A stretch of DNA of 43,434 nucleotides from Prorocentrum cordatum. Lineage: Eukaryota. Each line of letters opens with the position of its first letter. Within the stretch, counting starts at the first letter, position 1. The stretch spans positions 620,001 to 663,434 of the forward strand of contig CAUYUJ010000248.1 of assembly GCA_963575745.1 (NCBI GenBank), in the 5' to 3' direction. The notes below the pieces were generated by a model. That model made no database searches. It worked only from the letters and a program-made list of their open reading frames with translations, and was not told the DNA's origin. The translations under genes and the position numbers were made by a program. Of the stretch, positions 14,120-24,172 are shown in pieces.

Positions 14120-15027
14120 TGTGTTGGTACGCTTCCCCCTGCCAGCGATGTGACACCACAGTCGCGATATAATATGGACGGGTGGCGAACACAAAAGCAT
14201 AGTACATAACTTTGCGCGCAGACGCACACACACTTTTTTTACGCCAGCGGCTAGGCAGAGTGACTTCGCTGGCGAGTATCACACACACACACACGCGCGC
14301 GCTGGCTCCAGAATGTGCCACGCTCATCGACGGGGCCTTCTGTCCGAGGCACGGCGGTGCCGTCCAAGGGCGGGGGCAAAGGAGAGAAGGCGACACGACC
14401 GCATCGTGGCACGAGCGCGTCAGGGTCCAGCAGGGGGCGTGCGTCTGCCTGGTACTGCAAGCGCTGCCCTGGATGCATCAAGTGCGCGGACAAGACCAGC
14501 CGCGTCGAGTGCCACCTGCCCGAAGCCGCCGCCTCCTGCGGGAGAGGTGGGCCCCCGAGGCGCCCTCAAATCGAGCGGCAGGGCCTTGGATCCGTGGGCG
14601 CAGGTGCCGAAAGCGGAGCTGCATGTGGCGCTGGAGGCGGGGGAACTGCCGGCGATGCACCGTGGGAGCTGGCCAGGAGCCAGCTCAAACTCGACGACTT
14701 GGCATCGCTCGGACGTGTGCATGTTTTTCTCGGCGAGGACCATCGAGGAGCATCCTTGATCATTTGGCGAAGAAGCCACGCGCGAAACCGAACAAAAGCG
14801 CAGGAAATGGACGTCCGAGCGATGGCCAGACGAGGCCCTCCAGGAAAACGCTCGGCTCCAGCTCCAGGCCAGCGCCGGCGACCACGCCATGGACGTCGAG
14901 GGCAGCACCATCTCCGCCACGGAGCGCAAGAAGAGGCTCTGGCAAGTGGATGAGCGCATCAGAGCCGTCGAGAAGCTCTTCGCGGCCGACCCAGATGGGG
15001 CCAACACCTCAAAGGCCGGCTTGATGC

Positions 15028-15562
15028 CACACACACACACAGACGCAAACGCACGCGCACGCGCACGCGCACGCGCACGCGCACGCGCACGCGCGCTCGC
15101 AAACGCACACTCACACGCACACGCACACGCACGCGCACACGCACGCGCACACGCACACGCACACGCAAACGCACACGCACACGCGCCCACATACATGCAC
15201 ATACACAAACACACACACACACACTCTCTCTCTTTCTCATACACACAGTCTCTCTCTCTCTCTATCTCTCTCTCTCTCTCTTTCCTCACACACACACATT
15301 TGGGCGGTCGCGGTTTCGCGCGCGGCGTCGAGGCGAAGCAAGACACGCGCTGTGGCCGAAACCTAGGCTGGTTCGCGCACGCGCGGGCTCAGAGGAGGGC
15401 TGCACATTGCAATCCGGGCGTGGGCGGCGGGGCGAAAGGAGAGACGCACACAAGCACACGCAGAAACACACGCACACACACACACACATACGCATGCACA
15501 CACACAAGCACACACCCGCACACACAGACACACACACGCATGCACACACACACACACACACC

Positions 15563-15627
<65 letters not shown>

Positions 15628-15631
15628 GCAC

Positions 15632-15699
<68 letters not shown>

Positions 15700-15970
15700 G
15701 CACGCGTGCGCCGCACGCGCACGCGCACGCGCACGCGCACGCGCACGCGCACGCGCACGCGCACGCGCACGCGCGCACGCGCACGCGCACGCGCACGCGC
15801 ACGCGCACGCGCACGCGCACGCGCACGCGCACGCGCACACACGCACACGCACACGCACACGCACACGCACACGCACACGCACACGCACACGCACACGCAC
15901 GCACACGCACACGCACACGCACACGCACACGCACACGCACACGCACACACGCACACGCACACGCACACGC

Positions 15971-16011
<41 letters not shown>

Positions 16012-16218
16012 CGCACACACGCGCACACGCGCACACACGCGCACACGCACACGCACACGCACACGCACACGCACACGCACACGCACACACACACACGCGC
16101 ACACACGCACACACACACGCACACACACGCGCACACACGCACACACACAGAGACACGCACACACACACACAAACACACACACACACACACACGCGCACGC
16201 ACACACGCACACACACGC
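15028..16218. repeat. Very long compound alternating purine-pyrimidine microsatellite (CA, CACG, CACGCG, CACGCA)
   Basis: Directly visible; nearly uninterrupted over 15445-16218. Confidence 0.95.
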
Positions 16219-16807
16219 TTCCTTCCAACGCTGGTCTCACGCACTCGCGTGTCCACGTGATGGCTGTTGTCGCGTCCTCACCCCGGCTTCGTAGTCCTGA
16301 CCTGCCCTTCTCGTTGATGGCGACGAGTACGTGAGCCTGCTTCTGGCACCGCGCGACGTGGTTCACGCCACATTGTGAATAGGAAAGGCCATCAACCAGG
16401 CAAATTGTTGCAAGTTTTAAAGCGAATTTACGCGGCACTCGCGCGAGAGCCACATTTTGAAAACGAGTCGCGCTCAATCCGTGAAGCTCTTGTACATGTT
16501 ACAGACGAGTGTGCGCGGCGCTAAGCTGAGAGCCACATTTTGAAAACGACCCGCCCTCCATGTGCGAAACTGCTGCCATTGTTTAAGCTCCAGAGTCATA
16601 CATTCTGAGGAAGTCTCAGGCGAAACACCCGACACGCCGCCCTAACAATTGGCCTTGGGGGTGCGACAGTGAGATTTAACTCAGAGGAAACAATGGAGGA
16701 GGAGGAGGAGGAGGATGAGAAGGATGAGGAGGATGAGGAGGAGGGGGAGGAGGAGATGGACCAGCGCATCTGACTGAATGGGTTCTTGTCTGGGCGGCTA
16801 TGGGCGG

Positions 16808-18552
16808 CTAGCTGCCGCTGCCGCTGCTGCTTGAAATTCCCAACGAACGTTGCGTCTCTCGAATCATCATGTCAAGAGGAATGGGAGCAGCAAAGACGAT
16901 GGGGCCATGCATGCCATCCTTGGGATGTCTGCACGACCTGAAACAGCGTATAGCCGTTATCTTGTTATTAGATTTGGGCTCTTTGAGGCACGCTTTCTGG
17001 AAACTTCTGGCCATGAATTCGGAGTAGACACCGCAGTTCCAGCAGGCCATTACACAGCTCTCATATTCGAGGCGGTCGAAAACATATATATATATAGTGT
17101 GTGGCCATTACGGTTGAGGGAGAGGTGAGAGAGGCTCGGGCAGGTGCCTTGGCATCTCTCGTGTTGGCGACGGGTGTTGGCTCCCGTTGTTAAAACTCTT
17201 GTGCGACACAGCTCGCACATCCATCTACCTCTTAGCCAGACCCACTTGCGGTACTGCCCTGGTTCTCTCTGACCACGGGAGGCACCAGCAACGGCCCCAG
17301 GACCCTCAGGGGGAGGGGGAGGCGGAGGCGGAGCAGGGGCGATTAGGGCAGCACCCACAAGGGGCTTTGCAGCCGGCTTGAAAACTGGTTTCCCGCAGGC
17401 TTTTCCCCCTGGTTTCGGCGCTATGGCGGGCCAGGTGAGCATGGCTTGTGAGACGAACCGCAGGAAACGCTTGATGAAGGCCTGATCGGCCTGATACTTA
17501 TCGATTTCGGCTTCCGAGGGGCCCCCGAGCTTCTTCGCGGCCGCTTTGGCGATTCGGTCGGCAGCGTCGTTCCCGAGGGCCAGAAACTTGTCGCGGGAGC
17601 CTTCTGGAAGGCTGTCTAAATCTTGGTGCGCTTTTACTTTACAAACTTGGGGGAGGGCACCTCCAGTGTGTTTACCTTTGGCAACTAGCTCCAGCCCAGA
17701 GTACAGATTCTTCCTATCAAAGCCTACTTGACTGTACTTTCGAATGGCTCCTAAGTGGTCCGAGTGGACCTGGGTAATGTTGGGGTACATGTGGCTGATG
17801 GCAAGGGCAAGATGCTCCGCTGCTCCTGATGTGGGCGGCAGAGCGGCTCCTGTCTGTCCAGACAGGTGTGCCTTGCAGTCACCAGCTTCGTCCATCACAA
17901 CTACCGACCAGCCCGTTTGATGCCAAACGGTGGGACCTTGCTTATAGCAGGATCCGTCAACAACAGCCTCGCCAGACATGGCCTCTTTAAGCGGGGCCTC
18001 GTCTTTGGACCAGAACTCAAAAGCAAAGCCGACCCCCGAGGGCCTTATAAACACGGGGTCGGGAAGGTATTGAAAACCATGGGCTAGTGGAGCTTCATTG
18101 GGGTACCCTCGAAGATATTCCAGATCGGGGGCCTCTAAGGTGTCACTTCTGACATCATCGACGAGCTGGCAGTTGAAACGGTGCTGCGTGGCATCTGTCG
18201 GGTGTCCGCACTCGCATACCTGGTCGATCCCATAACCTGCTGCAGCCAAGCGGGACCTGGTCCAGAGACATTGGGTAAGGTAGGCCAGGAGGCAGCCCCT
18301 CTGGGGCTTGGTAAGGTTCGGGTCGTCCAGCACAGCTTTTGCGGCCGAGCAATCCAGACGGTCCTGAGGGTGTCTCATTTTGGCTGCTGCTTTAAACTCG
18401 AGCTGCGCCTTCCAGGCGTCCTCCAAGTGGTACTTGAGGAGGGCTGGCGGGGTCACAGTGAGCTGGAGGATGAGGCCTTGGCTCGTCTCTATCTCGAACG
18501 GGTTGAGGAGCTTCCAACCTATCCCGTTGAGGCTCAGCAGGGCGGCCCCCAT
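16808..18552 (-). pseudogene. Retrotransposon polyprotein 3' part: post-RT Cys/His region, RNase H and C-terminal Cys-rich motifs (frameshifted)
   Basis: RNase H motifs VVDGSC, GAAEHLAL, HSDHLG, KVKAHQ, GNDAADRIAK (~17540-17970); CECG..DATQHRFNC; RWMCELC...RCQG and MACWNCG. Frame break near a (TA)n at ~17084-17096; stop at 16808. Confidence 0.85.
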
Positions 18553-19955
18553 GGGCCCTCGGCATGCACTCCAGCTTTTTGGGGGTTATCCAAGATTCGG
18601 TTCACCTTCTGTTTCAAAGCACCGTGATCATACTTGAGCAAGCCAGGTTGGGCCGAGATCCTCCATGCCAAAAGACTGTAGTATATGATGGGCCCCAAGG
18701 CGGCCTTCCAGGAGGGGTCTCCAAGCAGGCGCAGGCTCAGGACTCGGGATCTCGTAGAGCTTCTGGGGCCAACGGTGCTGAGGTAGAAGTTCTGGCTCTG
18801 GGCGAGTTCTGAATCGGTCAGGCCTACCACCTCGCTCCCATAATGGTTGGCCTGGTCGAGGCCTGCTTTGTACAACTTCCGCATGTCGGCCCCGGCCTTT
18901 TTGGTAGCCTGGAGCCTGCGCCTGCGGTGCTTCATCTTCTTGAAACGAAGGCGCAGAACAGCGCGGCCACGGCCGCTGCGGACACGACCTCCAGCCGTGT
19001 AGTCTATACCGAGGTTGGCGGCGGCGTCGACCCGCTCCAAAGCCTGGGGTCCTGCTAGTGAGCCGAGGGCCTTGACGAGGGGCTCACGAACCTTTACGGA
19101 GGAGGCTAAGACGGCTGACTTATGGAGGGCAATGTTGCTGTCTAAGTCCTCCTCTACGGGGTCCTTCATACTCTTTGAGGCTCCTGCAAGGGTCTTGGTC
19201 AGGGTCTTGGGGCACTTATCTTGGGCCTGTAAGATGATGTCATCAATAAACATGTGGAGGCTAGTATCTATGTTGTCCTGGACCCAGACATCGAGCCGTA
19301 CAATGCAATATTTCTGTATTGCGTAAGTGGCGAAGCTGCAGCCTGCGGGTACTCCATACTGCGGGCTGCCAACGAAGACTGCTTGCGACCTGTTGGCGAC
19401 TAGACGGGGCGATCCATACTGGTTGGCAATCAAGACCGCCACAGCTTGATTGAAACCGGTGCCGACCGCTCTGGAAAACCATTTGCCCCGATCGATGTGT
19501 TCGTAGTAGTTTGAGAGGCCCCAGAGCACCGCAGCAGTGAACCTGGAAACACCTGCATAATGGGCCGATCCCGCCTCGAGGGCCTGCAAGAAAACGGTCT
19601 CCAAGATTCCTCGCCCTCCCTGATGGGCCAGATAAGGCCTAATGCTTTGAAACTCCCATCGTCGAGCTGCTGGCTGCCTTATCTTGGCCCGGAGTCTCCA
19701 GATCGAACTCATCAATCCTATCCTTCGGTAGCTGGGCTTGTCTTTGGAACCCTCCTGCTGCATATGCTTGGGGATGAGCATGGTGACGGTCGCGCGCACC
19801 TGAGAGGGCAAGAGGCCGACCGCCTCGAAAGCGTGCGTGAAGCGGGCCACGAGCTCGAGCTCGCTGTCACCTAAGAGCGCAAAGTGCCTGGGATGGAAGC
19901 CGTCGTAGGTGGGGGCCGTGTGATAGCTGAATCGCTTTGCTGCTGTTCTTATCAT
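18534..19955 (-). pseudogene. Non-LTR reverse transcriptase domain
   Basis: Motifs YDGFHPRHF, TMLIPK, YRRIGLMS, LWGLSNYYEHIDR (first catalytic D appears replaced by G), GVPAGCSFA, MFIDDI, NLGIDY; frameshifted relative to the flanking segments. Confidence 0.9.
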
Positions 19956-20629
19956 GTCAACTGTGATGGGTTCCAGCTCGGCTAGGGCTTCAGGGCTTGG
20001 TCCGCGATGTTTATGTTTCTGCTCTTGCGGGGTAGTCTCCCAGATATCCGAAAGACGTTCGGCTTCAGCTTTAAGTAAGTCATGCGGCCTTCCTGACCAC
20101 CTTCCGATCGAGGCTTTCCAGACTTGCTGAGGCTTTCAACTGCTGAAATCTTTGGTCCATCTATGGCCCCATCCCACTCCGTGCTGCATAGTTGTCTTGG
20201 CCCAATCAACCCAGTTTCTCGTCGGTCGATCGGTCGCGCTGCATTTCTCCTTCTAAGGCTTAACCGGTGTCGACGAAGAGCTTATCGAACAGTTCCTTCG
20301 CCATTGCGGTATTTAGAGCGTCGCTACGGATGTCGACTAGGGCCGCGCGTAGGGCAGCTTGAACTGTTTGAAGAAGGGCCCCTAACTCATCAACTTCACC
20401 AACTAAAGCCGGGGCCGAACCTAGGTCCTCCAAGACAACTTGAACATCATATTCTAGATCGCATGCTTGGTCTAAGGCACGCCGTGCGTCAGTAATCTTA
20501 TTCTTCAGCCAGCGGAGGGGTCCTGCAAGAGAGCGCCAGCTGCGACGGCGAGCGCGTTCCGCTGCACATGCGGGAACCCATCGGAGCTGAGGTCCTTGAC
20601 CTCGTAGGCGCTGGCTGCGAAGAGGCGTG

Positions 20630-21515
20630 TCAGTGACCTTGCTCAAAAAAACTCGTTAAATCGCTGGCCAGGATCTCGTAGGTCTGGTCCGTGGCCCCGT
20701 CCAAGGTCCCGTAGTCCGACTTCTGTCCCAAGAAGGCTTCCATGTGGTCCAGGGCCGCTTCGGTTCGGGTCCAGGGAGTTGTTTGCGCTATGGGTCCCAC
20801 GGGCAACTTCGTTGGGATCTTCTGAGGCTTTACCAGGACGGGCACCAGGAAGGGCCCATCTATGGCGAGGTCGAAGTGCACGGGCCTGTGGGGGCTCAGG
20901 GGGTACTCCTTTAGGACCTTGGGCTTACTCACGTAGTCCTGGAAACAATCGGAGACGAGGAAGAAATCGATCAGGCTCTTGGTGTTTCTAGTCTAGAGCC
21001 TGCACTCCTGCTCTCGGGCAGAAGTTACTCTTGGTGAGCTTGGCAGGCGAGAGGTTGAAGTCAGCCGCAACTATCAGGCCCATGCGATGCTTCTGGCCGA
21101 GCTGCGCGAGGCTGGCGAGGAGGTCGAGGTTAAATTCGGTCAGCCCAACCTCGCCGGCAAGGTAGGTTGAGGATAGAATAAATGGAGCGTGTCCTGGCAC
21201 CTCCAGAGCTACACCGGTAACTTTTCCCCTTGGCGTATTGGCAGGATAGTCGACTTTTGTGACCCCGAAGTCGTACCCGTCTCTCACGAGGATGGTTGTG
21301 CCCTGCGCTACTGCCCCACAGTCGCTCAGAACCCCAGCCGTGAAATTTGCATTCCATCCACGCTTGCTACACCACTGAGTAGCATCCAAAACTTGATTTT
21401 CAAGAAGCCTGGCCTCCTGAACACACAAAACGTGGATGGACTTGGCGTCTTCGGACTCGACGAAAGTCTTGACGCTTCCCCAACAGCTTCCATTGAAACT
21501 CATGATGCGGAGGTT
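20630..21515 (-). pseudogene. APE (exonuclease-endonuclease-phosphatase) endonuclease of the retrotransposon
   Basis: IMSFNG, LCVQEARL, SSTYL, AADFNLSP, then after a stop/frameshift at ~20988 SLIDFFLVS and SPHRPV (SDH-equivalent). Confidence 0.87.
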
Positions 21516-22654
21516 ACCCCCCCCAGACTTACGGGCGGCCCCCGAGCCCTCAATCCTGGAGCGGAGCCTCCTCTGGGCATCCTCAGCTGATGGTCCCAGA
21601 GCCCCAGGAGTCCCGATCTGCGAGACCGCCGAGAGGGCCTGAACAGCCCGTTTGGAGGCCCCTTCCTCCTTCTCCTTCGCGTCGGAGAGCTCCATGTCGT
21701 CAGCGGCGGAGCCTGCAGGAAGGCCCTCTCCATTGGGAGCTGCGACTGCGGCTGCACATTCAGGGGCTGGTGGGTGACCAGCTGCTGGTTCAGCTGCTGG
21801 TGCTGGTGGTACTTGTCCTTCCCGCGGTTGCTCGTCAGCTGCTGGTTGTGCCGACGCCTGGACCATCCGATTGTACTCGGCGTCGAGCTCCGTAGCCATG
21901 GCGTTGACCTTCTGCTTGAAGTCGGGGCTGATCTCCGCGCCAGGCGGGAGCTTCGCCTTGATGCAGTCCTCGAGCGTGTCTGATGATGCCCCATGTGCTG
22001 CACCATCTGCACCTCCAGCCTGTGGGCTGCTGCCTTCGCTGCGACCTTGAGCTGGCTCTCGAGCTGCTGGCATTCCTTGTAGATATCATTGCACTCATTC
22101 GCGGCCGTCCGGCACTTCTCGGTGAGCTTCTCAATCCCCTCAAGGTACCAGGCCACGTCCTTCAGCTTGCCCTCCAGGCGCTTGCGCTGCACTGAGAGCT
22201 GGTCCGACGAGCTCTGCGTCTGCTGGTCGGGTGACTTGTTTGCCGAGGCGGCGGCCTTGGCTGCTTTACGTTCTTCTGCTGCTTGAAGGTAATGTTGTCC
22301 TCCACCTCCTTCCATCTTGCGCCAGAAGTTGACGGCGGCCACGCAGACCTGGATGGAGTCGGTGGTGTCACACTCTGGCTGCTGAACTGATGCATCATCA
22401 TCGAATTGGACTCGACGAGACCACCGGGTGCCGCGCGAGCTTGAGCGGGGCGGCTTGGGGGGCTGGGCGGTCTGCTTGTTCGCACTGTTGGCCGACTCCG
22501 TGAAGGGCTTCCCGCATTTACCACAATGACGGTGTCCCAAATCCGTCCAGGACCATCCCCCACATGATGGCGTTGAACAGACCATGTAGCACCTCGGAGT
22601 CTTGGCCGAACCTCTCGGGCGCGAGGGGCGACGCGCTGAGCCGCCTGGCGCCAT
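21516..22654 (-). pseudogene. ORF1-like leader: C4 zinc finger plus coiled coil, frameshifted near 21983
   Basis: ATG at 22654 (MAPGGSARR...); CSTPSCGGWSWTDLGHRHCGKCGKPF; heptad-rich QLSVQRKRLEGKLKDV...CQQLESQLK; continues in another frame (TLEDCIKAKL...) that runs into the APE domain without a stop. Confidence 0.72.
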
Positions 22655-22857
22655 GGCTGCGCCGCACACAGCAGAACAGCGGCCAGCAGCAGGAGCTGGA
22701 CGCCTCGGCGATGGCGGCAGCGGCCGAGGAGGCAGAGGGGGCGCGGCTGCGGGGCGCCCGTGCTGGCAGAGGCAGCCAGGCCTAGGGAAGGGGCTGCCTT
22801 TCCACCTCGGCCTCGAGCCTCTGGAGTCGGGACCCACGGGAGGTAAGCTCCGTGAGA

Positions 22858-22878
22858 CTTGAGCCAAAATGGCTACGG
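22858..22878 (-). other. Dinoflagellate spliced-leader (DinoSL) sequence in genomic DNA, 21/21 exact
   Basis: Plus strand cttgagccaaaatggctacgg = minus CCGTAGCCATTTTGGCTCAAG, the conserved DinoSL (DCCGTAGCCATTTTGGCTCAAG) lacking only the first base; followed by TCTCACG, not GT, so not an SL-RNA gene. Confidence 0.97.
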
Positions 22879-23229
22879 GGGAGGAGGATATGGAGGAGGA
22901 GGAAAAGGAGGGGTAGGGAGAGGAGGTGGAAGGGCTTCGGGGCCTCGGGGCGGCGGACGGGCCAAACAGCATACGCGGTGGCTAGAAGCCAGGGAAGTTA
23001 GAAGAAGAGCGATCGGCACGAGCAGTTTCTTTCGACGGTCCAGAGGAGGCCCCAGCGTAGATCCAAGAAATGCGCGGGGACCGTCAAAAGTTGATATTCA
23101 TGCAGTTACTCCGTCCTCTTCTCTAGGAGGAGAGCGCGCACACCGTCAGGGCGGGAGCGCGCCGTGGCCATCCTGGCCCTGGCCGTGCTGGGCCGCGCCC
23201 GACGAGGCTCGCCGTCCCGTGCGGCGGCC

Positions 23230-23305
23230 ATGGCGCCCTCCGAGGTGGCCTCCGAAGTCGGCGGCGGAGCGGCCTTCCGGGACGCGGAAGGCTTCCCAGT
23301 CGTAG
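23230..23305 (+). CDS. AN1-AN1-PUB protein (ZFAND2/AIRAP-like), exon 1
   Basis: gccATGgcg; MAPSEVASEVGGGAAFRDAEGFPVV(G); 'FP.xG' precedes the first AN1 finger as in ZFAND2 proteins; GT donor at 23306, phase 1. Confidence 0.78.
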
Positions 23306-23508
23306 GTGCAGAAGGAGAAAAACGCCATAAACACAAATTTGTGGCGTTCCGCGCGGAGTCTTGGATCCGCGCTGGGCCCCCCCGGCGGCGCCTCCGGCGC
23401 CGCCATTGGCGCGCTCCGCGCGCCAGGCAGGGGGGGTCTAGCGCAGATCCACGAAATCCGCGCGGAGCGCCAAAGAATTTTGTTTATAGCGTTTTTTCTT
23501 CTTCTAAG
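23306..23508 (+). mobile_element. Introner-like GT-AG intron that is almost entirely a TIR hairpin element (family G)
   Basis: 23310-~23385 is the imperfect reverse complement of ~23430-23505; removing it restores the frame (FPVVG|GRCS). Related cores at ~23895-24012, ~26866-26987, ~40120-40206. Confidence 0.8.
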
Positions 23509-23856
23509 GTGGCCGTTGCTCCCTGAGGGAGTGCAACGTCCACGATTTCCTGCCAGTGGTGTGTGGCTTCTGCCAGGCGCCCTTCTGCGACCTGCATGCG
23601 GCGCCAGACCAGCACAGCTGCCAGCGCGCCCCGCCTGCAGTCGCCGGTCGCCGCGCCACCGTGTGCCCCGCGTGCGAGGAGACCCTCCGGTGGGACACCG
23701 CGGACTCCACGGAGGAGTCCACCCTGGAGGCACACCTGGCCGCGTGCCCGGGCCGACGGCGCCCGAGGGAGCTGTGCCCGAACCCGCGCTGCGGGGTCGA
23801 GCTCGGCCTGCTCAACGCGTTCACCTGCGCCACCTGCCAGCAGAGGGTGTGTATCG
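23509..23856 (+). CDS. AN1-AN1-PUB protein, exon 2 (AN1 finger 1, linker Zn motif, most of AN1 finger 2)
   Basis: GRCSLRECNVHDFLPVVCGFCQAPFCDLHAAPDQHSC...VCPACEETL...LEAHLAAC...CPNPRCGVELGLLNAFTCATCQQRVCI; 'C....C...DFLP..C..C...FC..H.....H.C' is the ZFAND2 signature; 3' edge uncertain by a few nt. Confidence 0.88.
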
Positions 23857-24016
23857 GAGGAGCAAGAAAGCTGCAGAAGCAGAGGGTCTCCGAGGTCCGC
23901 GGCGGATCTCTTGGATCGGCGCTGGCCTCCCCTCCCTGGCGCGCCTGGGGCGTCGCCAGAGGCGCCGCCAAGGGGGGCCAGCACAGATCCAAGACATCCG
24001 CGCGGATGTCCGCGTC

Positions 24017-24172
24017 GTCGGGCGTGTCCCTCTGCAGGAGGAAGACTCACAACTAGTAGGAACATTGTCTGGGGACCACTTTTGACAGCGTTTTGCAATG
24101 TTTGTTGATTGCTGGATTTTTTTGGGGGGCTTTCCTCCCACAAGATCCGGCTGTAGGGGGACACACTCCAGG
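24017..24172. mobile_element. MITE family A copy inside intron 2
   Basis: gtcgggcgtgtccctctgcaggagga ... atccggctgtagggggacac. Confidence 0.75.

What the first reader, a model, noticed from the sequence alone, without database searches (positions are those of the whole stretch)
16761..22894. A LINE-type retrotransposon whose 5' end is the dinoflagellate trans-spliced leader
Seen: the APE-RT-RNase H element starts, on its own strand, with an exact CCGTAGCCATTTTGGCTCAAG (22878-22858). This abuts one copy of a 16-bp TSD (22879-22894); the other copy is at the 3' end (16745-16760). The SL is therefore inside the insertion and is its terminus. It is followed by TC, not the GT of an SL-RNA gene intron. 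Established: DinoSL is added to nuclear mRNAs by trans-splicing, and relic SLs mark retro-copied host genes; SL-gene-targeting elements exist in trypanosomatids (SLACS/CRE) and nematodes (NeSL). Inference: this element may use host trans-splicing to cut itself out of read-through transcripts, gain a cap and define a precise 5' end without an internal promoter. The terminal AG of the integrated SL could serve as the acceptor in the next round, regenerating the same end. Such elements would also be candidate drivers of dinoflagellate mRNA recycling.
Basis: partly seen in the sequence, partly recalled or inferred. Interest (0 to 1): 0.9.

Follow-up and report, generated by a model that had tools for sequence, protein, structure and literature searches.

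The report
Dinoflagellate LINE copy capped by spliced leader
A broken 6.1-kb jumping gene of the LINE type begins exactly with the 21-base leader that dinoflagellates splice onto their messenger RNAs, so it was copied back into DNA from a leader-capped RNA, which points to this kind of element as a possible source of the gene "recycling" typical of these algae.

Summary
An exact 21-nt DinoSL lies at 22878-22858 (-). It is followed by TC, not GT, and a 16-nt target-site duplication abuts it. The second duplication copy, at 16745-16760, matches 15 of 16 bases. The two copies enclose a 6118-bp non-LTR element: SL, a 203-nt leader without an ATG, an ORF1-like zinc-finger and coiled-coil region, APE, RT, RNase H, and a 3' UTR without poly(A). 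This copy is dead, with five frame changes and one in-frame stop.

The RT belongs to a large family (1636 cluster representatives). Relatives carry Exo_endo_phos, RVT_1, zf-RVT and RNase_H, and the family profile matches human L1 ORF2p best.

No genome is held, so the 5' ends of all copies could not be counted. Contigs from four public runs do cross the same SL-leader junction, in two allelic forms.

My reading is a full-length TPRT copy of an SL-trans-spliced LINE RNA, probably typical of its family. I found no explicit description in print. Verdict: a new variant of a known kind, of moderate interest.

The parts
22879..22894 (-). 5' copy of the target-site duplication, TCCATATCCTCCTCCC, the last 16 nt of a roughly 50-nt polypyrimidine (CCT-rich) tract
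22858..22878 (-). Exact 21-nt dinoflagellate spliced leader (DinoSL without its variable first base); 5' terminus of the insertion
22655..22857 (-). 203-nt leader (5' UTR) with no ATG; the first ATG, at 22654, sits in GCAGCCATGG. The first roughly 60-80 nt are far more abundant in public runs than the element body
22034..22654 (-). ORF1-like region: Cys-rich stretch (CSTPSCGG...HRHCGKCGKPF), then a region that reads as coiled-coil by eye, not tested. The frame stays open to 21500, but coding sense moves to the APE frame near 22050. No Pfam, atlas or relative match
20651..21515 (-). Apurinic/apyrimidinic-type endonuclease, split over two frames (21515-21006 and 20992-20651)
   Evidence: Exo_endo_phos E=0.0027, below the Pfam cut-off; 8 of 9 relatives align here; family profile matches the L1 endonuclease chain 2v0s, E=0.0019
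20422..20646 (-). Linker between APE and RT, in a third frame. A contig of run X1 lacks one base at 20647, where the frame changes
18639..20252 (-). Reverse transcriptase (FIDD motif), with one in-frame stop at 20138-20136
17053..18582 (-). Zinc-binding stretch, RNase H (DGSC, AAEHLA, HSDH, GNDAAD read from the translation) and a Cys-rich C-terminus, in another frame; stop codon at 17052-17050
16761..17049 (-). 3' UTR ending ...GATGCGCTGG, with no poly(A) and no simple-repeat tail
16745..16760 (-). 3' copy of the target-site duplication, TCCATCTCCTCCTCCC (15 of 16), the first 16 nt of a roughly 80-nt CCT-rich tract

Best explanation
This is a decayed but full-length copy of an L1-like LINE with APE, RT, a zinc-binding stretch and RNase H.

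Inferred mechanism: its RNA template had received the host spliced leader by trans-splicing, as dinoflagellate nuclear mRNAs do. Target-primed reverse transcription at a CCT-rich site then ran to within about one base of the capped 5' end. That wrote the 21-nt SL into DNA as the element's first bases and produced a 16-bp target-site duplication.

Shown directly: the SL, the TSD, the domain order, and the missing poly(A). Shown indirectly: the same SL-leader junction recurs in contigs of other public runs, so it is probably the normal 5' end of this family's RNA or DNA copies.

Inferred only: the element needs no 5' end of its own, because the host supplies cap and terminus. New copies would be re-expressed by read-through transcription, or from the T-rich SL motif that others have proposed as a promoter, and would then be trans-spliced again. 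Such elements could be an enzyme source for SL-tagged retrogenes.
For: - The SL is exact and unique in the window and is followed by TC.
- The TSD pair encloses SL through 3' UTR and is unlikely by local composition.
- There are no terminal or internal long repeats.
- Domain order is APE-RT-RNase H. All 9 relatives tested align to the RT and to the RNase H/C-terminal regions, and 8 of 9 align to APE.
- Of 10 relatives scanned, RVT_1 is found in 7, Exo_endo_phos in 5, RNase_H in 5 and zf-RVT in 3.
- The family profile matches human L1 ORF2p at E=1.3e-13, R2 at 1.9e-5 and RNase H chains at about 3e-5.
- The leader has no ATG in 203 nt, and the first ATG sits in GCCATGG.
- Other runs: all four have depth at 22854, 4 nt from the SL (X1 196, X2 3094, X3 28, X4 2.1).
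- Contigs with a 4-nt gap at 22854-22857 exist in X1 (1), X2 (5) and X3 (1), so the junction has two allelic forms.
- X3 record 23 aligns to 22762-22879 and begins at the SL's 5' end.
- X2 record 14 links the leader (22647-22791) to the ORF1-like region (22322-22432) in a copy roughly 85% alike.
Against: - Only this one copy is seen together with its flanks.
- No genome is held, so copies without SL cannot be excluded.
- All laid runs are Logan contigs whose kind (DNA or RNA) is a guess. The junction-spanning contigs may be transcripts rather than integrated copies.
- The copy is dead, and most laid contigs are under 95% alike. This may be an old family.
- The first roughly 60-80 nt behind the SL have 10-100 times the depth of the body in all four runs, which I cannot explain.
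- X3 record 23 has 70 further letters for which no aligned piece is listed beyond 22762, so it may run on unlike the window.
- The ORF1-like region matches none of the 9 relatives, no Pfam family and no atlas cluster.
- No close protein relative of the 5' piece was found.
Confidence: 0.7

Rival explanations
1. The family has no promoter of its own and depends on trans-splicing. The integrated SL's terminal AG, helped by the polypyrimidine target tract, is the acceptor in the next round and regenerates the same end. The family drives mRNA recycling.
For: There is a single SL with no tandem relic behind it. A roughly 50-nt polypyrimidine tract lies directly upstream, formed by the target site. 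In X2, 11 contigs run through the SL and 10 nt of flank and then continue as other GGA-rich (CCT-rich on the SL strand) sequence (loose end at 22888). A review states that the retroelement type behind retroposition is unknown (PMC6050394, passage seen).
Against: The first AG after the pyrimidine tract is the one in CCGTAG, not the terminal one. By my recollection of the recycling model (Slamovits and Keeling 2008, not read here), that AG is the acceptor, and its use should leave CCATTTTGGCTCAAG relics. Target preference rests on one locus; the 11 contigs were selected by needing a GGA-like first 10 nt. Promoter absence is untested. The copy is dead.
Confidence: 0.3
2. Chimeric retrocopy. During TPRT the RT switched from a 5'-truncated LINE RNA to the 5' part of an unrelated, abundant SL-capped host mRNA. 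In that case the SL, and the leader or the whole ORF1-like part, are not the element's own.
For: Depth is 196-264 (X1) and about 3100 (X2) at 22832-22854, against 7 (X1) and 175 (X2) at 22744-22751, and about 15-60 in the body. X1 record 8 ends at 22796. X3 record 23 has no listed aligned piece beyond 22762. The ORF1-like part has no homologue among 9 relatives.
Against: X2 record 14 joins the leader to the ORF1-like region in a diverged copy. ORF1-like depth is similar to RT depth in X3 and X4. The reading frame is open from the leader through the ORF1-like part into APE. LINE ORF1s are commonly unalignable between families (general knowledge).
Confidence: 0.12
3. The LINE landed next to, or was assembled next to, an unrelated SL relic. 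That would be either adjacent independent insertions or a mis-join at the high-copy 21-mer.
For: The SL is a high-copy word: 74 X2 contigs match only the SL and diverge at 22858. No listed contig bridges this locus's own flank into the leader.
Against: The 16-nt TSD abuts the SL on one side and the 3' UTR end on the other. Independent runs contain SL joined to this leader.
Confidence: 0.05

Closest known systems
[quoted passage not shown] 2017, PMC5585692; PMC12014239; PMC6050394)
   Same: A DNA-encoded SL sits at the 5' end of a retro-copied transcript and is not followed by an SL-gene intron.
   Different: The copied transcript is the retrotransposon's own. A clear 16-nt TSD is visible, there is no poly(A), and there is no tandem relic. 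Song et al. report 'RNA-dependent DNA replication' enriched among relic-bearing genes (passage seen). RT genes with relics were therefore seen in bulk, but no element with an SL terminus and a TSD is described in the passages I read.
L1-like APE LINEs with RNase H (human L1 ORF2p is the best solved match)
   Same: APE, RT, zinc-binding stretch and RNase H order, a TSD, and no LTRs.
   Different: There is no poly(A) or repeat tail. The 5' end is a host-derived SL. The RT is only about 30-39% identical to the nearest long database proteins. The clade is not placed, because I had no reference RT set.
SLACS/CRE/CZAR of trypanosomatids and NeSL-1 of nematodes (recalled, no call)
   Same: These are non-LTR elements associated with spliced-leader sequence in trans-splicing hosts.
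   Different: They insert site-specifically into SL-RNA genes with a restriction-like endonuclease. Here the endonuclease is APE-type, the target is a CCT-rich tract, and the complete SL lies inside the TSD.
Pr77 of L1Tc/ingi/NARTc/SIDER (abstracts in the listing: PMC1874656, PMC8190864)
   Same: A short conserved 5'-terminal module is shared by many elements in a trans-splicing host. It may parallel the over-abundant first 60-80 nt seen here.
   Different: Pr77 is an internal promoter that gives unspliced transcripts. Here the 5' end is the SL itself, and promoter activity is untested.
dinoRNAV with a 5' dinoSL, and its endogenous copies near relict dinoSL and LINEs (PMC10235124, passages seen)
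   Same: A non-host genetic element carries the host SL at its 5' end. LINEs are proposed as the integrating machinery.
   Different: That case concerns an RNA virus and its fragments. Here the LINE itself carries the SL.

Membership tests
Non-LTR (LINE) retrotransposon, APE type | Reverse transcriptase of the non-LTR type | tested here: met
   There are 1636 relatives at E<=0.001. RVT_1 is present in 7 of 10 relatives scanned. The family profile matches L1 ORF2p at E=1.3e-13. The window's own ORF alone matches no Pfam model.
Non-LTR (LINE) retrotransposon, APE type | N-terminal apurinic-type endonuclease | tested here: met
   Exo_endo_phos scores E=0.0027, below the curated cut-off. Eight of 9 relatives align at 21515-20651. 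The profile matches the L1 endonuclease chain 2v0s at E=0.0019.
Non-LTR (LINE) retrotransposon, APE type | Target-site duplication and no terminal repeats | tested here: met
   The TSD matches 15 of 16 bases. Self-BLAST of 16701-22950 gives only the self hit.
Non-LTR (LINE) retrotransposon, APE type | Poly(A) or simple-repeat 3' tail | tested here: not met
   The 3' end reads ...GATGCGCTGG directly before the TSD. Tail-less LINE families exist (general knowledge).
Non-LTR (LINE) retrotransposon, APE type | Multiple dispersed copies | tested here: inconclusive
   The whole element is covered in X1 and X2 by thousands of short contigs 80-99% alike. No second copy with flanks was seen, there is none in the window, and no genome is held.
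DinoSL-relic retrocopy | SL encoded in DNA at the 5' end of the copied unit, without an SL-gene intron | tested here: met
DinoSL-relic retrocopy | Truncated or tandem relic SLs from repeated rounds | tested here: not met
   There is one complete SL only, and no further match to the SL core at up to 2 mismatches in the window.
SL-RNA gene | SL exon followed by a GT intron; often in tandem arrays | tested here: not met
   TC follows the SL. There is a single occurrence. Rfam gives no match in the window at gathering thresholds.
SL-gene-targeting elements (SLACS/CRE/NeSL) | Insertion within an SL-RNA gene; restriction-like endonuclease | tested here: not met
   The target is a CCT-rich tract duplicated on both sides. 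The endonuclease is APE-type. The family's features are recalled, not read.

The most novel reading that the evidence does not exclude
A dinoflagellate LINE lineage has given up any 5' end of its own. Host SL trans-splicing supplies cap and terminus. Insertion into polypyrimidine (CCT)n tracts rebuilds a working splice acceptor in front of the integrated SL at every new site. The same machinery, acting in trans on other SL-capped mRNAs, would be the long-sought engine of dinoflagellate mRNA recycling.
Probability: 0.2. Interest if true: 0.85.

Novelty: new variant of a known kind. Interest (0 to 1): 0.55.

Why it matters
Over 20% of genes in some dinoflagellate genomes are reported to carry upstream DinoSL (PMC11453091, passage seen). 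The enzyme source is still called unknown, and a 2018 review leans towards LTR elements (PMC6050394, passage seen).

A LINE copy that carries the SL inside a 16-bp TSD indicates that a target-primed, non-LTR machinery copies SL-capped RNA to its very 5' end in a dinoflagellate. It also supplies concrete signatures to compare with SL-tagged retrogenes:
- TSD length
- a CCT-rich target
- no poly(A)

That comparison makes the question of which retroelement drives retroposition directly testable on existing assemblies. It also raises a general question: how does a retrotransposon persist in a host where trans-splicing removes everything upstream of the acceptor?

Tried and rejected
**Whole genome.** None is held, so the proposed BLAST of 22650-22857 against the genome could not be run.

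**Other copies in the window.** None.

**Protein word-index searches.** The RT at near lengths gave nothing among 8000 scored candidates. The 160-aa piece covering SL, leader and ORF1 start gave nothing at near lengths or shorter lengths.

**SL-encoded peptides in relatives.** These are not SL.

**Collection scans.**
- The leader 18-mer in metagenome contigs gave 2 hits, both chance matches in unrelated coding DNA.
- The SL-leader junction pattern gave 0 hits in genome contigs and 0 in viral contigs.
- RT relatives gave none in viral contigs and none in genome contigs.
- The exact SL in viral contigs gave 119 stretches, and 0 of 119 loci carry this LINE superfamily. Nearly all are AT-rich giant-virus contigs.

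**RNA fold.** The SL plus leader (139 nt) folds no better than shuffles (z = -0.71).

**Other look-ups.** The atlas gave no usable hit for the ORF1-like part. Rfam gave no match in the window. Earlier findings of the scan gave nothing relevant in 4 look-ups.

**Sequencing runs.** No RNA holder is listed. Parts of the element without cover in X3 and X4 are not interpreted.

**Literature.** No listed title, abstract start or read passage describes a LINE whose terminus is the SL. bioRxiv supplements, and the supplementary tables of Song et al. and of the P. cordatum paper, were not seen and might list such genes.
Full report
**Observation**

The minus strand reads ...TCCATATCCTCCTCCC|CCGTAGCCATTTTGGCTCAAG|TCTCACGGAGC....

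- The 21-mer is the DinoSL without its variable first base. It occurs once in 43434 bases. No match with up to 3 mismatches arose in 100 shuffles.
- A 16-nt SL core with up to 2 mismatches is also unique in the window.
- TC follows the SL, so this is not an SL-RNA gene. Rfam finds nothing in the window.
- At the other end the element stops with ...GATGCGCTGG and is followed by TCCATCTCCTCCTCCC.

The two 16-mers agree at 15 of 16 positions. Both flanks are CCT-rich, so I tested the repeat against local composition.

- It is the only pair with at most 1 mismatch among all 16-mer pairs of the two tracts.
- Dinucleotide shuffles of the 3' tract reach it in 0.18% of 20000 trials anywhere, and in 0.005% at the first base.
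- In the whole window there are 3 matches at up to 2 mismatches, against an expected 0.04.

The repeat is therefore real. It ends one base before the SL and begins one base after the 3' UTR. The junction is ambiguous by up to 2 nt, because CC follows both copies. The insertion spans 22878-16761, which is 6118 bp.

**Anatomy**

Behind the SL lie 203 nt without an ATG, and the first ATG (22654) sits in GCAGCCATGG. It opens an ORF1-like region with a Cys-rich stretch and a part that reads as coiled-coil by eye.

Nine relatives were laid on the element by tblastn.

| Region | Coordinates | Relatives aligning |
|---|---|---|
| APE | 21515-21006 and 20992-20651 | 8 of 9 |
| Linker | 20646-20422 | 1 of 9 (2 of 9 with a 14-residue piece at 20538-20497) |
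| RT | 20252-18639 | 9 of 9 |
| Zinc-binding / RNase H / C-terminus | 18582-17053 | 9 of 9 |
| Upstream of 21515 | | 0 of 9 |

- These blocks lie in four successive frames, and the ORF1-like part lies in a fifth reading. The RT block holds one in-frame stop at 20138-20136. The copy is therefore non-functional as assembled.
- One X1 contig lacks a base at 20647, exactly where the frame changes. At least that shift seems private to this copy or to the assembly.
- Self-BLAST shows no terminal or internal repeats. There is no poly(A) or repeat tail.

**Family**

- The window's ORFs alone barely touch Pfam. Exo_endo_phos scores E=0.0027, and nothing matches RT or RNase H.
- An exhaustive HMMER search with the RT ORF finds 1636 cluster representatives at E<=0.001, 685 at 1e-10 and 135 at 1e-30. 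The best long matches are 35-39% identical. Short fragments are 69-87% identical.
- Of 10 long relatives scanned, 7 carry RVT_1, 5 Exo_endo_phos, 5 RNase_H and 3 zf-RVT. Some of these score below the curated cut-offs.
- A profile of 15 family members matches human L1 ORF2p (E=1.3e-13), then R2 (1.9e-5), retroviral-type RNase H chains (about 3e-5) and the L1 endonuclease (1.9e-3).

This is a bona fide APE-type LINE of L1-like architecture. I could not place its clade, because I had no reference RT set.

**Other copies**

No genome is held, so the decisive count of 5' junctions was impossible. Eleven public runs were listed for the 5' end, and nine of them hold part of the stretch. I laid four of them on 16400-23300 at 80% likeness. 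All four are Logan contigs, and their kinds are guesses.

- X1 and X2 cover the whole element with thousands of short contigs, mostly under 95% alike. The family is multi-copy and fairly old.
- All four runs have depth at 22854, four bases from the SL (196, 3094, 28 and 2.1).
- Contigs with a 4-nt gap at 22854-22857, which must be anchored in the SL, occur in X1 (1), X2 (5) and X3 (1). A second 4-nt gap at 22832 occurs in X1 (2), X2 (1) and X3 (1).
- X3 record 23 aligns to 22762-22879 and starts at the SL's first base.
- X2 record 14 links leader 22647-22791 to ORF1-like 22322-22432, with the 214 nt between replaced by 223 other letters. That indicates a diverged copy with the same layout.
- Three X2 contigs break at 22878/22879 and continue differently. 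Eleven run through the SL and 10 nt of flank into other GGA-rich sequence. Whether these contigs also hold the leader is not shown.

SL joined to this leader therefore recurs outside this locus, as RNA, as DNA or as both.

**Results against, or unexplained**

- The first roughly 60-80 nt behind the SL are 10-100 times deeper than the body. At 22832-22854 depth is 196-264 in X1 and about 3100 in X2. At 22744-22751 it is 7 in X1 and 175 in X2. X1 record 8 stops at 22796. X3 record 23 has 70 more letters with no listed aligned piece beyond 22762.
- This could mean a 5' module shared by more elements, as Pr77 is in trypanosomatids. It could also mean that the leader comes from an abundant host mRNA, which is the chimera rival.
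- The ORF1-like part has no detectable relative. No close protein relative of the 5' piece exists in the word-indexed collection.
- Scans of metagenome, genome and viral collections gave no further copy. None of 119 viral-collection loci with an exact SL holds this LINE.

**Mechanism**

The most economical reading has three steps. The element's RNA was trans-spliced at AG|TCTCACGG. The RT primed at a nick in a CCT-rich tract. It then copied the RNA to within about one base of its 5' end.

- A switch onto SL RNA itself is unlikely, because no intron sequence follows the exon.
- How a daughter copy is expressed is inferred only. A roughly 50-nt polypyrimidine tract from the target now precedes the SL and would suit a 3' splice site.
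- The first AG downstream of that tract is the one in CCGTAG. By my recollection of the recycling model, use of that AG leaves CCATTTTGGCTCAAG relics. This copy has none.
I cannot tell which.
- Others have proposed that the retroposed DinoSL's T-rich motif acts as a promoter (PMC6050394 and PMC5585692, passages seen). That would be a third route.

**Literature**

I saw search listings and passages by term search in these papers:

- PMC12014239
- PMC3229502
- PMC7245778
- PMC8045281
- PMC11453091
- 10.1101/783902
- PMC3942190
- PMC5585692
- 10.1101/2022.07.25.501386
- PMC10235124
- PMC9651163
- PMC6050394

What they say:

- None of the passages describes a LINE whose terminus is the SL.
- Song et al. 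report 'RNA-dependent DNA replication' enriched among relic-bearing genes, so such genes were seen in bulk.
- A Symbiodinium preprint reports no overlap between functions enriched in DinoSL-relict genes and in RT genes.
- A review says the mediating element type is unknown and favours Ty1/copia.
- Slamovits and Keeling 2008, and the SLACS/CRE/NeSL papers, are recalled and were not read.
- Supplementary tables were not seen.

**Verdict**

It is probably a family trait. The adaptive 'strategy' and the link to mRNA recycling are open but now testable. This is a new variant of a known kind, and I rate interest at 0.55.

Noticed in passing
L003-L121 (IMG/VR viral contigs): The exact 21-nt DinoSL occurs in 119 stretches, nearly all on AT-rich giant-virus MAG contigs. 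In 136 distinct contexts the base before the SL is A in 129. Many contexts have a recurring AT-rich motif directly upstream, and different sequence follows, in many cases with an ATG within the 60 nt shown. These viruses appear to encode the host leader at the 5' end of many of their own genes, behind a promoter-like motif. No title in the listing addresses this.
   Followed up: partly
window 22797-22878: The SL plus the first roughly 60-80 nt of the leader have 10-100 times the contig depth of the rest of the element in all four runs laid. This may be a shared 5' module, non-autonomous relatives or a host mRNA leader. It remains unexplained.
   Followed up: partly
window 16443-16561: A very high-copy repeat (unit containing GAGAGCCACATTTTGAAAACGA...), with summed depth of 5.7e4 in X1 and 9.8e4 in X2. 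Many contigs show tandem-type 'goes back 57-59' joints. It lies just beyond the element's 3' flank.
   Followed up: no
P0008, P0014, P0015 (also P0009, P0155, P0019), N-terminal to APE: Relatives carry a 2A-like motif just before the endonuclease: RIGEA.NPGP in 3 of the 8 N-termini printed, and variants ...TPGP or ...HPGP in 3 more. The window's element has no NPGP in any minus frame of 20900-22900.
   Followed up: no
window 23508-24053 (+): An ORF with an AN1-type zinc finger (PF01428, E=5.6e-11) lies about 600 nt upstream of the element's 5' end on the opposite strand. The nearest recognisable host coding sequence is therefore antisense to the element.
   Followed up: no
L069 (5319 nt) and L049 (4952 nt), viral contigs: These are two contigs of ordinary G+C with two or three long ORFs and an exact SL. 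In L069 the SL is the very end of the contig, as in a leader-capped RNA. I did not identify them. dinoRNAV-like viruses with a 5' dinoSL are described in PMC10235124.
   Followed up: no
window 14760-16330: A roughly 1.5-kb tract of CA/TG-type microsatellite, which translates as HTHT, RTRT or CVCV in all frames.
   Followed up: no
P0004 (117 aa): The closest RT fragment (87% identical over 117 residues) is labelled in EukProt as coming from a Pyramimonas sp. transcriptome. It may be carry-over from a dinoflagellate. It suggests the family is transcribed somewhere.
   Followed up: no
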